The position numbers were made by a program, and so were the translations under genes. This document shows positions 25,143 through 29,964 of a stretch of DNA of 36,691 bases, piece after piece. Origin of the DNA: a virus (taxonomy: Duplodnaviria > Heunggongvirae > Uroviricota > Caudoviricetes); the IMG/VR virus record IMGVR_UViG_2718218358_000002. One strand, 5' to 3'. The number at the start of each line of letters is the position of its first letter. Positions within the stretch are counted from its first letter, which is position 1. Under the pieces are notes generated by a model. It did not search any database and was not told the DNA's origin. It worked only from the letters and a program-made list of their open reading frames with translations.

Positions 25143-25457
25143 GTTGTATGAGCTGACATACCTATAGCACAGAGTAAAGTCTAATCTGACAGTCCGCTCT
25201 GTGCCAAGAGCAGACGCTGGTAATTCGTGCCTAATATACTTCACTTAACTTATATCCCAGCTTTGATACAGATCATACAAATTAAATGCCCCAGTAATTG
25301 GCAGGCTGAGTAACTTAAAACTCCTTAGAATATAGGATGATTTGTATCGGCACTCATTCCACCATGCATTCCGATTAATCCCGCATAGCCAGTTGAACTT
25401 TGCTACTCTGTGAGAGGTAGTACCTTCTATCCAGTGCGGATTTAATTAATGGAATAA

Positions 25458-27461
25458 ATGATTATGAGTGAAAATGATACAACCCCAAAGAAGTCTACAA
25501 GCCAGGTTAACAAAGCGGTATTCTTTACATCTGCTTTGCTAATTTTCCTTCTTGTCGCCTTTGCCGCCGTATTCCCGGATGTCGCCGACAAAAATTTTAA
25601 ACTACTTCAGCAACAAATCTTCACGAATGCCAGCTGGTTCTACATACTTGCTGTGGCCCTGATTTTACTGAGCGTCACGTTCCTTGGACTCTCACGTTAC
25701 GGTGATATAAAGCTGGGCCCAGACCATGCGCAGCCTGATTTCAGCTACCACTCCTGGTTCGCGATGCTTTTTTCGGCAGGGATGGGGATCGGCCTGATGT
25801 TCTTTGGCGTTGCCGAACCTGTGATGCATTATCTTTCGCCACCTGTCGGCACTCCAGAGACCGTTGCGGCAGCGAAGGAAGCCATGCGCCTGACGTTCTT
25901 CCACTGGGGTCTGCACGCATGGGCAATTTATGCCATCGTGGCGCTGATTCTGGCCTTTTTCAGTTACCGTCACGGTCTGCCTTTAACGCTGCGTTCTGCG
26001 CTCTATCCCATTATCGGCGATCGCATTTACGGGCCTATAGGCCACGCGGTTGATATCTTCGCCGTGATAGGCACTGTCTTTGGCGTTGCAACATCGCTGG
26101 GTTACGGTGTATTGCAGGTGAATGCCGGTTTGAACCATCTTTTCGGCGTGCCCATCAATGAAACGGTACAGGTCATTTTGATCGTGGTCATCACGGGGTT
26201 AGCGACGATTTCGGTGGTGTCCGGCCTGGACAAGGGAATACGCATCCTGTCTGAGCTTAATCTGGGCCTGGCGGTGTTGCTCCTGGCGCTGGTCTTGTGC
26301 CTGGGTCCCACTGTGCTTCTGCTGAAGTCATTTGTGGAAAATACGGGTGGTTATCTGTCGGAACTGGTGAGTAAAACGTTCAACCTTTACGCGTATGAAC
26401 CCAAGTCGAGCAACTGGCTGGGGGGCTGGACATTATTATACTGGGGATGGTGGCTTTCATGGTCGCCGTTTGTAGGTATGTTCATTGCACGCGTTTCCCG
26501 CGGCAGGACAATTCGTGAGTTCGTGACTGGCGTGTTGTTTGTTCCCGCCGGCTTTACGCTCATGTGGATGACGGTGTTTGGAAACAGCGCCATCTATCTC
26601 ATCATGAACCAGGGCGCCACTGACCTCGCCAATACCGTTCAGCAGGATGTTGCGCTTGCCCTGTTTAATTTCCTGGAGCATTTCCCGTTCTCTTCCGTGC
26701 TGTCATTCATTGCAATGGCGATGGTCATCGTCTTCTTTGTAACGTCTGCTGATTCGGGGGCAATGGTTGTGGATACTCTGGCATCAGGTGGGGTGGCAAA
26801 CACGCCCGTCTGGCAGCGAATTTTCTGGGCATTGCTCATGGGCGTTGTTGCTATTGCCCTGCTGATCGCAGGGGGGCTGAGTGCGTTGCAAACCGTAACG
26901 ATAGCGAGTGCATTGCCCTTCTCAGTTATCTTATTAATATCCATATACGGACTGTTAAAAGCCCTGCGTCGGGATTTGACCAAGCGTGAAAGCCTTAGCA
27001 TGGCGACTATTGCTCCTACGGCTGCACGTAACCCAATTCCCTGGCAGAGAAGGTTACGCAATATCGCGTATTTGCCGAAGCGCTCTCTTGTGAAACGTTT
27101 TATGGACGACATTATCCAACCCGCCATGACGCTGGTTCAGGAGGAACTTAACAAGCAGGGAACGATAAGCCACATCAGTGACGCCGCCGAGGATCGTATT
27201 CGCCTTGAAGTCGATTTGGGCAACGAGCTGAATTATATATATGAAGTGAGGCTTCGCGGGTATAACTCACCGACCTTCGCGCTCGCTGCGCTGGATAATG
27301 ATGAGCAGCAGAGTGAACAACATCGATATTATCGCGCTGAAGTCTATCTCAAAGAGGGCGGCCAAAATTATGATGTAATGGGCTGGAATCAGGAACAGCT
27401 GATTAATGACATACTGGACCAGTACGAAAAACACCTGCACTTCCTGCATCTGGTTCGTTAA
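25458..27461 (+). CDS. BCCT-family transporter, BetT-like (choline/betaine-type), 667 aa; prophage cargo
   Basis: BCCT signature WTLLYWGWWLSWSPFVG; about 12 TM helices; C-terminal cytoplasmic tail ending QEQLINDILDQYEKHLHFLHLVR, resembling the E. coli BetT tail as I recall it; located in the G-FI variable region. Confidence 0.75.
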   Translation: MIMSENDTTPKKSTSQVNKAVFFTSALLIFLLVAFAAVFPDVADKNFKLLQQQIFTNASWFYILAVALILLSVTFLGLSRYGDIKLGPDHAQPDFSYHSWFAMLFSAGMGIGLMFFGVAEPVMHYLSPPVGTPETVAAAKEAMRLTFFHWGLHAWAIYAIVALILAFFSYRHGLPLTLRSALYPIIGDRIYGPIGHAVDIFAVIGTVFGVATSLGYGVLQVNAGLNHLFGVPINETVQVILIVVITGLATISVVSGLDKGIRILSELNLGLAVLLLALVLCLGPTVLLLKSFVENTGGYLSELVSKTFNLYAYEPKSSNWLGGWTLLYWGWWLSWSPFVGMFIARVSRGRTIREFVTGVLFVPAGFTLMWMTVFGNSAIYLIMNQGATDLANTVQQDVALALFNFLEHFPFSSVLSFIAMAMVIVFFVTSADSGAMVVDTLASGGVANTPVWQRIFWALLMGVVAIALLIAGGLSALQTVTIASALPFSVILLISIYGLLKALRRDLTKRESLSMATIAPTAARNPIPWQRRLRNIAYLPKRSLVKRFMDDIIQPAMTLVQEELNKQGTISHISDAAEDRIRLEVDLGNELNYIYEVRLRGYNSPTFALAALDNDEQQSEQHRYYRAEVYLKEGGQNYDVMGWNQEQLINDILDQYEKHLHFLHLVR

Positions 27462-27468
27462 CAGCAAC

Positions 27469-27497
27469 ATGCCGCCACAGAGGCGGCATTTATTTAT
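27469..27497 (+). terminator. Rho-independent terminator after the BetT-like gene
   Basis: ATGCCGCC-ACAGA-GGCGGCAT 8-bp stem followed by TTATTTAT. Confidence 0.65.
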
Positions 27498-27524
27498 CCC
27501 GGCTGCAATATGAGGGAATGCAGA

Positions 27525-28802: not shown

Positions 28803-28942
28803 TTGCGGAGCAAGCGATACGGTTGTTGGCAAGTCAAGGGCAAAGCATTCGCGTGAGAGTGGGCGTCTGCTTTGTGCCAACAGCGGACATTATAGATGGT
28901 ATATGTAGAAAGTGAACATGCGTAGATTGTATGATTTAGCCG

Positions 28943-29752
28943 TCACTTAATTATTGGATAACTCACACAAGTATGACCGTTGCTTATCGCATACATTTGG
29001 TTTCCCTTAAGATTTACAAATGGAAATGTCGTATACTCATAATTTATAGAGGTCATATTAAATGTAAGGAATTTATCTTCAAGTTCTAATTTTGTAGAGT
29101 GGGCAGGGTATGTTCCTTCATTTTTCATTGTGATAATAAAACCGATAGGAAAAAAATGTAAAGCACAAATAAATGCCACATGTCCTTCGTTCATAAATGC
29201 TACACTTTGAGCGGATATGTGCATTCTGTGTGGGTAAAACCAGTAGTAAATATCATGAGTTTCCTCAAAACTTGAATTTTTACCCAAAACATAATCCTTT
29301 AAAGGTGTATAGAAGGGGCTATCTACGGGTTCTTTTTTACAATCTTCAACTGAAGTTGCTGATAGCACGTGCCCAATCATAGCCTTAGTGAAAGATATGC
29401 TATCAAAAGGTATTCTAATGAATGGATATACATTCATACCATTCATATATCGACTTAACTGTTCTTTAAAGGACTTTGTTACATTTTCAATTGCAACATC
29501 GAGCCCACCTAATACCTTATTGTTACAGTGGCTGCAAATGGTTCTGAAATAAGAGCCATTTTTAGCATTTAATGGTTTAACTGGTTCCTGAATACCAAAA
29601 AATTCGCTAACTGTTTTCTGCAAAACAGGGCCTAAGGTTATGGCGCACTTTGGAGGAACATGATCTTTTGTGAGCAAGCCATATTTCCCACAAATATTGC
29701 AATAACCTTCAGTAATGCCATTGTGCTTCCATCGTTCACTAATTTTCGTCAT
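28943..29752 (-). CDS. HNH-motif nuclease-domain protein with about 190-aa C-terminal domain of unknown function, 269 aa
   Basis: N-terminal CNICGKYGLLTKDHVPPK ... CSHCNNK matches the HNH zinc-finger pattern (CxxC, DH, CxxC-N-x-K); very AT-rich; convergent with the two upstream cargo genes. Confidence 0.6.
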   Translation of the reverse strand: MTKISERWKHNGITEGYCNICGKYGLLTKDHVPPKCAITLGPVLQKTVSEFFGIQEPVKPLNAKNGSYFRTICSHCNNKVLGGLDVAIENVTKSFKEQLSRYMNGMNVYPFIRIPFDSISFTKAMIGHVLSATSVEDCKKEPVDSPFYTPLKDYVLGKNSSFEETHDIYYWFYPHRMHISAQSVAFMNEGHVAFICALHFFPIGFIITMKNEGTYPAHSTKLELEDKFLTFNMTSINYEYTTFPFVNLKGNQMYAISNGHTCVSYPIIK

Positions 29753-29868
29753 TTTTATTCCCTCAGTAGCATAAGCTATCTATACGTTTTTTAATCCTAT
29801 CAAAGATACAACTTAACGTCAGGAAAATGATAGTGTTTATCTAAGTAATACAATTAACTTCAACGCGT

Positions 29869-29900
29869 GACAGTCTGCTTTTCGCTCAAAGCAGACTGTC
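29869..29900. repeat. Perfect 13-bp palindrome with 6-nt loop (GACAGTCTGCTTT-TCGCTC-AAAGCAGACTGTC) upstream of the HNH gene
   Basis: Read directly; lies in the HNH promoter region and at the right edge of the cargo island. Confidence 0.5.
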
Positions 29901-29964
29901 AGATTTGATAGCGTTTTGGCTATGTAAATTGTCAGTCGGAAAATGAGTGAGTACAAACTAGGAC

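What the first reader, a model, noticed from the sequence alone, without database searches (positions are those of the whole stretch)
25167..29905. Shared 12-nt motif in inverted orientation within hairpins at both edges of the G-FI island
AATCTGACAGTC occurs at 25183-25194 on the plus strand, inside the loop of an 8-bp inverted repeat (25167-25174 with 25197-25204) just after G. Its reverse complement occurs at 29894-29905, overlapping the right arm of the perfect 13-bp palindrome 29869-29900 just before FI. The two copies bracket the whole cargo island. They could be conserved backbone flanks used for cassette exchange by recombination, or shared regulator-binding sites. Chance occurrence of a specific 12-mer at both borders is possible but not likely.
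Basis: seen in the sequence. Interest (0 to 1): 0.45.

Follow-up and report, generated by a model that had tools for sequence, protein, structure and literature searches.

The report
Recombinase sites flanking P2 cargo hotspot
The two inverted 12-base motifs are the phage-side halves of two short recombination sites that bracket the cargo slot between the tail genes G and FI of a P2-like prophage. A small, widespread tyrosine recombinase most likely uses such sites to swap gene cassettes between phages, plasmids and chromosomal islands.

Summary
AATCTGACAGTC lies at 25183-25194 (+) and 29894-29905 (-), far above chance.

The 12-mers are not free-standing motifs. Each is the backbone-side arm of a 24-bp dyad-symmetric core site of the form GTCYGCTYT-N6-ARAGCRGAC:
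- site A1, 25192-25215, spacer GTGCCA
- site B, 29873-29896, spacer TCGCTC
- internal site A2, 28865-28888, which splits the island into two cassettes

In 53 P2-like G-FI islands (24 cargo types), homology to the backbone stops at these spacers.

The window's cargo occurs 99.9-100% identical on E. coli plasmids, with junctions in the same spacers. There its modules are permuted without inversion, and all four reciprocal junctions are found at both site types.

A 200-aa tyrosine recombinase gene sits inside such arrays. It occurs on plasmids, in some P2 islands, in a CFT073 island, in a Proteus icd island and beside metal-resistance genes among ICE-like genes in marine bacteria. A/B sites cluster around it in one orientation.

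"Cassette exchange by recombination" is therefore supported, but as site-specific recombination. The regulator-site reading is not supported.

A review credits Nilsson et al. 2004 with inverted repeats and site-specific recombination at this locus, so the outline is known. I found neither the recombinase nor the two-spacer architecture in the 2022-2026 hotspot papers I could read.

The parts
24615..25142 (+). P2 gene G (tail fibre assembly), the left backbone gene
   Evidence: Pfam Caudo_TAP, E 9e-35. About 89-96% DNA identity to P2-like phages.
25167..25204 (+). Its 3' arm overlaps the left arm and spacer of site A1.
   Evidence: dG -8.8, z -1.8. It is conserved backbone in all P2-like islands. 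Analogous hairpins precede the A site after the int gene.
25183..25194 (+). Left copy of the 12-mer AATCTGACAGTC. It is the outer extension (CTGACA) plus the first 3 nt of the left arm of site A1.
   Evidence: CTGACA-GTCCGCTCT-GTGCCA also occurs in the CFT073 island array, outside any phage.
25192..25215 (+). Site A1: left arm GTCCGCTCT (25192-25200), spacer GTGCCA (25201-25206), right arm AGAGCAGAC (25207-25215)
   Evidence: 0 mismatches to the arm consensus. Backbone homology stops at the spacer in 24 cargo types. Plasmid homology to the window's cargo starts at about 25189-25192.
25207..28873 (+). Cassette 1: BCCT transporter (25458-27461) and DUF2254 membrane protein (27510-28802)
   Evidence: Pfam. 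99.9-100% identical on E. coli plasmids, bounded by A sites.
28865..28888 (+). Site A2: GTCTGCTTT-GTGCCA-ACAGCGGAC, the junction of cassettes 1 and 2
   Evidence: On plasmid L003 the same left half is joined to a different cassette (hyp476) at this spacer.
28880..29881 (-). Cassette 2: 269-aa ORF of unknown function (28943-29752, minus strand)
   Evidence: phrog_21495, unknown function. It is the only cargo in phage pro147. It also occurs on plasmids and in Erwinia aeris, with boundaries at A and B sites. An ORF of the same length and strand lies between two B sites in CFT073, but I did not compare its sequence.
29868..29901 (+). Site B: 14-bp perfect palindrome. Core is GTCTGCTTT (29873-29881), spacer TCGCTC (29882-29887), AAAGCAGAC (29888-29896).
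   Evidence: Cargo homology ends at the spacer in the P2-like islands. Plasmid homology ends at 29887-29897.
29894..29905 (-). Right copy of the 12-mer: the last 3 nt of the right arm of site B, its outer extension TGTCAG, and ATT
   Evidence: It is part of the block AAAGCAGACTGTCAGATTTGATAGC, conserved in at least 90% of islands.
29965..29985 (+). Conserved terminator-like hairpin between site B and the F-operon promoter region. This is context and not part of the sites.
   Evidence: The same element is present in P2, upstream of the annotated pF activator site.
30089..31279 (+). P2 gene FI (tail sheath), the right backbone gene
   Evidence: Pfam Phage_sheath_1 and the P2 annotation.

Best explanation
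The G-FI cargo slot of this P2-like prophage is bounded by two heterospecific core sites of tyrosine-recombinase type. Each has about 9-15-bp inverted arms (consensus (CTGACA)GTCYGCTYT ... ARAGCRGAC(TGTCAG)) around a 6-bp spacer. Site A, after G, has spacer GTGCCA. Site B, before FI, has spacer TCGCTC. A second A site divides the cargo into two cassettes.

In each border site the outer arm belongs to the phage backbone and the inner arm belongs to the cassette. The arms of a site are inverted repeats of each other.

Proposed mechanism:
- A dedicated 200-aa tyrosine recombinase (catalytic domain only) recombines A with A and B with B. Strand exchange is confined to the spacer.
- The recombinase is not encoded in this window. 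It is encoded in equivalent arrays elsewhere, including some P2 G-FI islands.
- Cassettes are excised as circles, reinserted, or swapped by double exchange, as in recombinase-mediated cassette exchange. The partners can be P2-like phages, plasmids and chromosomal islands.

Shown here: the site anatomy, the conservation breakpoints, the reciprocal junctions on natural plasmids, and the physical association and shared polarity of sites with the recombinase gene.

Inferred: that this particular recombinase catalyses the exchange, that spacer identity governs partner choice, and that the sites in this window are still active.
For: (1) An arm-consensus scan of the whole 36.7-kb window that left the spacer unconstrained found only three strong hits (0-1 mismatch). 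All three lie in the G-FI island, and they carry just two spacers, GTGCCA twice and TCGCTC once.

(2) In 53 unique P2-like islands (24 cargo types) an A site always lies about 50-62 nt after the G stop and a B site about 200 nt before FI, always in the same orientation. Larger islands read A-A-B, A-B-B or A-B-A-B. Column conservation is at least 90% up to ...CTCTGTGCC, intermediate over the cassette-side arms, and random in the cargo. The right border mirrors this.

(3) The window's 4.7-kb cargo is 99.9-100% identical on many E. coli plasmids and other chromosomal places. Homology starts at about 25189-25192 and ends at 29887-29897, with no P2 flanks.

(4) Plasmids L003 and L004 carry the same modules in different order without inversion. 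All four junction combinations exist at A: (DUF2254-end, int-end) x (269aa, hyp476). All four exist at B: (269aa-end, hyp476-end) x (int, IS26-side). The switch point is confined to at most 8 bp (T-GTGCCA-A or T-TCGCTC). An A x A excision followed by B x B reinsertion converts one arrangement into the other.

(5) The 200-aa protein is a PF00589 tyrosine recombinase. R51, K79, H148, R151, H174 and Y183 align to catalytic positions of XerD and Rci.

(6) Its gene sits between a B-type and an A site in every close relative examined. It is present in P2 G-FI islands L055/57/60/62/63, and truncated in L027 and L061. It occurs in 888 of 5426 complete E. coli genomes.

(7) In 278 kb around close relatives there are 64 A/B sites, 59 of them in the orientation of int, against none in 20 shuffles.

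(8) Cassettes are shared between P2 islands and int-linked arrays of Erwinia and Rahnella, with boundaries at the sites.

(9) More distant recombinase relatives (Pseudomonas, Burkholderiales) are flanked by a differently spelled but analogous site, which suggests co-evolution of enzyme and site.

(10) A review attributes to Nilsson et al. [quoted passage not shown]
Against: No recombination was observed directly. Everything is comparative.

This window encodes no copy of the 200-aa recombinase, so activity here would need the enzyme in trans. I could not check whether the host strain has it.

The left arms of some A sites, such as the one after int (CAGCCCT), match the arm consensus poorly. 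Binding symmetry is therefore not universal.

Some islands have lost one site: pro147 and L074 lack B, and the 1132-bp family has a degenerate A. Such cargo can persist without intact sites.

Exchange between P2-like phages by ordinary homologous recombination in G and FI surely also happens, and this analysis cannot separate it from site-specific exchange.

The primary 2004 paper could not be read. I do not know whether it proposed a different enzyme.
Confidence: 0.75

Rival explanations
1. The motifs are just part of conserved non-coding backbone. Cargo is swapped between P2-like phages by RecA- or phage-mediated homologous recombination in the flanking G and FI genes, and the palindromes have no recombination role.
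For: The flanks are at least 90% conserved for tens to hundreds of bases outside the sites. That is ample substrate for homologous exchange between co-resident P2-like phages. Recent hotspot papers list homologous recombination among the candidate mechanisms.
Against: The same cargo occurs on plasmids without any P2 flank, with junctions inside a 6-8-bp spacer. Modules are permuted between sites that share only about 8 bp. The same sites occur with a recombinase gene in non-phage arrays of other genera. Cassette-side arms are conserved although the cargo is unrelated.
Confidence: 0.1
2. The hairpins are transcription signals: terminators or insulators that isolate cargo from the late operons, or binding sites of a shared regulator.
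For: Both sites are dyad-symmetric and lie at operon ends. Site B is a stable 14-bp hairpin. P2 late promoters use dyad-symmetric activator sites, and the annotated pF site lies about 100 bp downstream of B.
Against: Neither A nor B was called as a terminator in the scan. The conserved terminator-like hairpin is a separate element at 29965-29985. There is no U-tract after A1 or A2. The left hairpin is weak (z -1.8). There is no Rfam match. The sites recur between cassettes irrespective of gene orientation, and in plasmids and chromosomal islands that have no P2 regulation.
Confidence: 0.07
3. The inverted 12-mers are terminal inverted repeats of a transposon-like element (DDE or MITE type) that inserted between G and FI.
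For: The two copies are in inverted orientation at both ends of a 4.7-kb segment that is found elsewhere at about 100% identity.
Against: The 12-mers lie on the backbone side of the homology breakpoints and are present in P2 and other phages with unrelated cargo. The cargo encodes no transposase. There is no target-site duplication. The borders carry different spacers and a third, internal site exists.
Confidence: 0.03

Closest known systems
P2 Z/fun region flanked by inverted repeats (Nilsson, Karlsson & Haggard-Ljungquist, Mol Biol Evol 2004, as summarised in PMC8987985)
   Same: Same locus, between G and FI. Cargo is flanked by inverted repeats, and site-specific recombination was proposed to exchange cargo between P2-like phages and bacterial genomes.
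   Different: I could not read the primary paper. The following may or may not be in it: the two-spacer (A/B) architecture, the internal sites, the reciprocal junctions on plasmids and the candidate 200-aa recombinase. They are absent from the 2022-2026 hotspot papers I could read. The cargo here (BCCT, DUF2254 and the 269-aa ORF) differs from fun.
Integrons (IntI, attI, attC gene cassettes)
   Same: A tyrosine recombinase and arrays of promiscuous cassettes, all sites in one orientation. Cassettes are excised, reinserted and reordered. The same cassettes turn up on many replicons.
   Different: The recombinase has 200 aa and scores far below the XerA/integron-integrase NCBIfam model (53.6 bits against a cut-off of 220). 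The sites are 24-bp double-strand-type palindromes with two spacer classes, not long imperfect attC hairpins ending in GTTRRRY. No attI/Pc platform is evident. Cassettes can hold several genes in either orientation. The recombinase gene itself sits in a B...A linker like a cassette.
R64 shufflon (Rci recombinase, sfx sites)
   Same: A tyrosine recombinase acting on many short sites. The sfx core 5'-GTGCCAA-3' (PMC4176322) is identical to the A spacer plus the next base in most A sites. As described for sfx (from memory), some A sites have one well conserved arm and one poorly conserved arm.
   Different: Rci has 384 aa and is only 20% identical over the catalytic domain (E 0.29). The sfx arm (TCCGGTACGTGG) is unrelated. 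sfx sites are inverted and give inversions only, whereas the sites here are direct and give excision, insertion and exchange.
pdif modules of Acinetobacter plasmids (XerC/XerD-dependent), from my own knowledge plus a passing listing
   Same: Cargo modules bounded by pairs of short dyad-symmetric recombinase sites, found in different plasmid contexts.
   Different: Those use the host XerCD and dif-like 28-bp sites. Here the sites do not resemble dif, and a dedicated small recombinase gene is embedded in the arrays.
Cre/lox or FLP/FRT recombinase-mediated cassette exchange with heterospecific spacers (engineering practice, from my own knowledge)
   Same: Inverted arms around a 6-8-bp spacer. Two site classes that differ only in the spacer flank a cassette, so double exchange replaces the cassette without recombination between the two classes.
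   Different: That is an engineered use of unrelated enzymes. Here the arrangement is natural, and spacer-governed partner choice is inferred from junction combinations only.
FimB/FimE-type small tyrosine recombinases
   Same: About 200 aa, essentially the catalytic domain with no separate N-terminal core-binding domain. There are weak NCBIfam hits to 'tyrosine-type DNA invertase' (E 8e-6).
   Different: Scores are far below the family cut-offs (25 bits against 222). FimB and FimE invert a promoter segment between inverted repeats. The sites here are direct and bound cassettes.

Membership tests
Tyrosine-recombinase core-type recombination site | Two inverted binding arms flanking a 6-8-bp central (overlap) region | tested here: met
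   GTCYGCTYT-N6-ARAGCRGAC with 0-1 mismatch at 25192, 28865 and 29873. The same architecture is found in 53 P2-like islands and in int-linked arrays.
Tyrosine-recombinase core-type recombination site | Exchange point lies within the central region, and reciprocal products exist | tested here: met
   All four left x right combinations are present at A and at B on plasmids L003 and L004. The switch is confined to at most 8 bp.
Tyrosine-recombinase core-type recombination site | Recombination depends on a cognate recombinase (activity shown) | not testable with these tools
   Only association is shown. The int gene lies between a B and an A site in all close relatives, and sites are enriched and co-oriented around it.
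Tyrosine recombinase (PF00589) - the 200-aa protein of related loci | Catalytic R-K-H-R-H/W-Y set | tested here: met
   PF00589, E 1e-17. H148-x-x-R151, H174 and Y183 align to XerD. R51 and K79 align to Rci.
Integron | IntI-type integrase | tested here: not met
   The best NCBIfam hit, 'tyrosine recombinase/integron integrase' (XerA_Arch), scores 53.6 bits against a cut-off of 220. The protein has only 200 aa.
Integron | attC sites (imperfect long hairpins with R''/L''...L'/R' and a GTTRRRY core) and an attI/Pc platform | tested here: not met
   The sites are 24-bp palindromes with GTGCCA or TCGCTC spacers. No GTTRRRY-type core is seen at the junctions. The attC definition is from my own knowledge.
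Shufflon (Rci/sfx) | Rci-family recombinase | tested here: not met
   20% identity to R64 Rci, E 0.29.
Shufflon (Rci/sfx) | sfx core GTGCCAA | tested here: met
   The core is given in PMC4176322. A sites read GTGCCA+A in the window and in most islands.
Shufflon (Rci/sfx) | Sites in inverted orientation producing inversions only | tested here: not met
   Sites are co-oriented: 59 of 64 around int, and all A and B sites with those spacers in the P2 islands, apart from one TGGCTC site that the scan typed as an inverted A. The plasmid isomers differ by permutation without inversion.
P2 Z/fun variable locus (hotspot between G and FI) | Variable cargo located between tail fibre assembly gene G and tail sheath gene FI of a P2-like phage | tested here: met
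   24 cargo types occupy the same slot.
P2 Z/fun variable locus (hotspot between G and FI) | Cargo flanked by conserved inverted repeats (Nilsson et al. 2004, as cited in PMC8987985) | tested here: met
   The identity of these repeats with those of the 2004 paper could not be checked because the paper is not held.
Xer/dif-type module (pdif) | dif-like XerC and XerD binding arms | not tested
   By eye there is no resemblance to E. coli dif as I remember it. No formal comparison was run.

The most novel reading that the evidence does not exclude
A widespread, so far uncharacterised, integron-like cassette system drives cargo turnover at the P2 Z/fun hotspot. It consists of a roughly 200-aa catalytic-domain-only tyrosine recombinase plus two heterospecific palindromic sites (spacers GTGCCA and TCGCTC), often arranged as B-linker-A junctions between cassettes. 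It physically links that hotspot to plasmids, pathogenicity islands and phage-related or other chromosomal islands (possibly also ICEs) across Gamma- and Betaproteobacteria. This would be a natural form of recombinase-mediated cassette exchange.
Probability: 0.4. Interest if true: 0.85.

Novelty: new member of a known kind. Interest (0 to 1): 0.62.

Why it matters
P2-like phages carry one of the best-studied hotspots of anti-phage and accessory genes. Papers from 2022 to 2026 state that the mechanism of rapid cargo swapping, and especially of exchange with plasmids and 'cryptic islands', is unknown. They discuss cos ends, homologous recombination, transposons or illegitimate recombination.

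The anatomy found here gives a concrete, testable mechanism for the G-FI hotspot: defined 24-bp sites, a candidate enzyme present in 16% of complete E. coli genomes, and natural reciprocal products.

It would also explain how identical multi-gene cargo appears in a prophage and next to qnrS1 on resistance plasmids. It offers a sequence signature (A and B sites) for delimiting cassettes in islands of unknown mobility. The enzyme and its heterospecific sites could also become a compact tool for cassette exchange.

Tried and rejected
- **Chance.** Rejected by shuffles.
- **Known defence system in the cargo.** PADLOC gave no hit. Pfam shows a BCCT transporter and DUF2254. The 269-aa and 476-aa proteins match only PHROGs of unknown function.
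- **Known RNA family or riboswitch at the hairpins.** No Rfam match at E up to 1.
- **Terminators.** The scan calls other hairpins (27469-27489 and 29965-29985), not sites A or B.
- **Transposon ends.** Rejected because the 12-mers are on the backbone side and are present with unrelated cargo.
- **Close kinship with the shufflon recombinase Rci,** suggested by the shared GTGCCAA core. Rejected at the protein level.
- **A/B-type sites elsewhere in the window.** The whole-window scan gave only weak, chance-level hits outside the G-FI island, so any other variable locus of the prophage within the window lacks them.
- **Literature.** The 2004 primary paper and Odegrip 2006 are not held. Searches for the site sequences returned only unrelated primer matches. 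Keyword searches for a described recombinase/cassette system at this hotspot found nothing beyond the review sentence.
- **Not done.** I did not check whether the host strain of the window carries the recombinase, because the collection cannot be searched per genome. I ran no structure prediction and no profile search.

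
Full report
**Observation.** The window is a P2-like prophage. G (tail fibre assembly) is 24615-25142 and FI (tail sheath) is 30089-31279. Between them lie three cargo ORFs: a BCCT transporter, a DUF2254 membrane protein and a 269-aa ORF on the minus strand. AATCTGACAGTC is at 25183-25194 (+) and its reverse complement is at 29894-29905. Allowing one mismatch, 0.13 hits are expected and 3 are found. The left 8-bp inverted repeat is real but folds weakly (z -1.8). The right palindrome is 14 bp long, 29868-29901, and folds strongly (z -4.9).

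**What the motifs are part of.** I scanned the whole window for a dyad-symmetric pattern, GTCYGCTYT-N6-ARAGCRGAC, with the spacer left free. Only three strong hits appeared, all in the island:
- 25192-25215, spacer GTGCCA
- 28865-28888, spacer GTGCCA
- 29873-29896, spacer TCGCTC

I call these A1, A2 and B. The left 12-mer is the outer extension (CTGACA) plus the first bases of the left arm of A1. The right 12-mer is the mirror-image part of the right arm of B. Their inverted orientation follows from the dyad symmetry of each site.

**Conservation and breakpoints.**
- P2 itself has both flanks: GTCCACTCT-GTGCCA-AAAGCGGAC after G, and TTCCGCTTC-TCGCTC-AAAGGAAAC-TGTCAGATTT before FI.
- I retrieved 80 IMG/VR loci with a G homologue. 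They gave 53 unique G-FI islands of 1.0-4.9 kb, with 24 cargo types.
- Where an A site is detected (45 of the 53 unique islands) it lies 50-62 nt after the G stop. Where a B site is detected (37 of 53) it lies about 200 nt before FI. Both are always in the same orientation.
- Larger islands read A-A-B, A-B-B or A-B-A-B.
- Column conservation is at least 90% through ...GACAGTCCGCTCTGTGCC. It is intermediate over the cassette-side arm (AGAGCGGACATT) and random in the cargo. The right border mirrors this: (A)ATGTCCGCTTC at 60-80%, then at least 90% from TCGCTCAAAGCAGACTGTCAGATTTGATAGC.
- Cassettes therefore carry their own inner arms, and the backbone carries the outer arms.

**The cargo is mobile outside phages.**
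- The window's island is 99.9-100% identical on many E. coli plasmids and other chromosomal places. Homology starts at about 25189-25192 and ends at 29887-29897, that is, in the sites and without P2 flanks.
- Two otherwise similar qnrS1 plasmids carry the modules in different order without inversion:
  - L004: A-[BCCT, DUF2254]-A-[269aa]-B-[int]-A-[hyp476]-B
  - L003: A-[BCCT, DUF2254]-A-[hyp476]-B-[int]-A-[269aa]-B
- All four junction combinations exist at the A spacer and all four at the B spacer. The sequence switch is confined to T-GTGCCA-A or T-TCGCTC.
- An A x A excision followed by a B x B reinsertion interconverts the two arrangements.
- The recombining sites share only about 8 bp, which argues against homologous recombination.
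- The 269-aa cassette alone is the cargo of phage pro147. It also occurs in Erwinia aeris, starting exactly at an A site. Another P2 cassette occurs in Rahnella, ending at the B site before int.

**The candidate enzyme.**
- 'int' is a 200-aa PF00589 tyrosine recombinase consisting of little more than the catalytic domain. R51, K79, H148, R151, H174 and Y183 align to catalytic positions of XerD and Rci.
- It has thousands of relatives at 77-92% identity across Gammaproteobacteria, all with only generic names. At least 546 loci occur in species-representative genomes, including Betaproteobacteria.
- In every close relative the gene is preceded by a B-type site (..TCGCTC-ATAAGGGAC-AACCATACTC..) and followed by a hairpin plus an A site (CAGGGCTGCAACAGCAGCCCT-GTGCCA-ANAGCGG). 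More distant relatives have a differently spelled analogous site.
- Around close relatives there are 64 A/B sites in 278 kb, 59 of them co-oriented with int, against none in 20 shuffles.
- Between cassettes a tandem B-(about 18 nt)-A junction recurs. The int gene occupies such a linker.
- Arrays occur in a Proteus icd island and in a CFT073 island that includes a TonB/ABC iron-uptake cassette. In marine bacteria the int gene lies between ars and cop/cus genes, next to ICE-like genes, but only its own flanking sites were seen there.
- An int gene of 194 aa that retains Y183 lies inside the G-FI island of P2-like phages L055/57/60/62/63. Truncated remnants occur in L027 and L061.
- int is present in 888 of 5426 complete E. 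coli genomes, but not in this window.

**Mechanism.**
- Most likely (about 0.75): A and B are heterospecific core sites. The recombinase pairs A with A and B with B and exchanges strands within the spacer. This excises, inserts or swaps cassettes.
- Enzyme dependence, spacer-governed specificity and present-day activity in this prophage are inferred, not shown.

**Rivals.**
- Exchange by flank homology only (0.1).
- Terminator or regulator sites (0.07). Terminator calls fall elsewhere, there is no Rfam hit, and the sites occur outside phage regulation.
- Transposon ends (0.03). The 12-mers are backbone, and there is no transposase.

**Comparison with known systems.**
[quoted passage not shown] 2004. 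I could not read the primary paper.
- Hotspot papers from 2022-2026 do not mention this and call the mechanism open.
- The system works like an integron (cassette arrays, one polarity) but fails the integron membership tests on integrase type and attC sites (and the sequences).
- It shares the GTGCCAA core with R64 sfx sites. The enzyme is not Rci-like, and the sites are direct, not inverted.
- It resembles pdif modules and engineered heterospecific cassette exchange in logic only.

**Verdict.**
- The finding is real and highly non-random.
- The cassette-exchange interpretation is supported, refined to site-specific recombination.
- The regulator-site interpretation is not supported.
- The locus is a new member, with new cargo, of a hotspot type described in 2004.
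- I found the recombinase, the two-spacer architecture and its breadth in none of the papers I could read. They make an open question directly testable.

Noticed in passing
window 25458-28802: The cargo is a BCCT (BetT-like) transporter plus a DUF2254 membrane protein, with no PADLOC hit. This is osmolyte-transport-type cargo rather than a recognisable defence system, in a hotspot known for defence genes. The identical segment sits next to qnrS1/ISKpn19/IS26 on resistance plasmids.
   Followed up: partly
L002 (phage pro147) 1960-1975, compared with window 29828-29925: pro147 has lost site B and the right 12-mer through a deletion between the direct repeats TGATAGTGTTT and TGATAGCGTTTT. This leaves the 269-aa cassette locked in place.
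   Followed up: partly
L027 and L061 (P2-like IMG/VR contigs), right end of the G-FI island: The recombinase gene is truncated after a few codons in L027 and after 35 codons in L061, and is fused directly to backbone sequence upstream of FI. These are relics of int cassettes once resident in P2 islands.
   Followed up: partly
L067 isl. 1310-1375; L068 isl. 1258-1323; L174 14715-14780; L094, L097-L100 and others: A tandem junction recurs between cassettes: a B site, about 18 nt, then an A site. The recombinase gene occupies the same B...A linker position. This may be the composite site carried by a circular cassette.
   Followed up: partly
L105-L173 (Pseudomonas, Burkholderiales and other loci), flanks of the int homologue: Relatives at 60-67% identity are followed by a hairpin and a site spelled ..CCGGCCAGAAGCGGCC.., often with an inverted copy upstream. 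This suggests the family and its sites co-evolve well beyond Enterobacterales.
   Followed up: no
window 25201-25207 and 28874-28880: The A spacer plus the next base reads GTGCCAA, identical to the core of the R64 shufflon sfx sites. The recombinases are only distantly related (20% identity). Whether this is coincidence or convergence is not explained.
   Followed up: partly
window 27469-27489: A perfect 8-bp GC-rich hairpin lies between the BCCT and DUF2254 genes. It was called as a terminator on both strands.
   Followed up: no
window 29906-29985: The conserved block after site B contains a small hairpin (ATAGC-N6-GCTAT), a second TGTCAG repeat (AAATTGTCAGTCGG) and a terminator-like hairpin just upstream of the pF region. 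The repeated TGTCAG might be an accessory element of the site or part of late-promoter control.
   Followed up: no
window 7133-7144 (-): A one-mismatch copy of the 12-mer (ACTCTGACAGTC) with no adjoining arm or spacer. It is probably chance.
   Followed up: partly
L086 6620-16295 (Proteus mirabilis): The int-linked array lies between icd and a duplicated icd 3' fragment. It carries YaaC-, nSTAND- and AbiGi-type genes, so it is a defence-island-like array built from the same A and B sites.
   Followed up: partly
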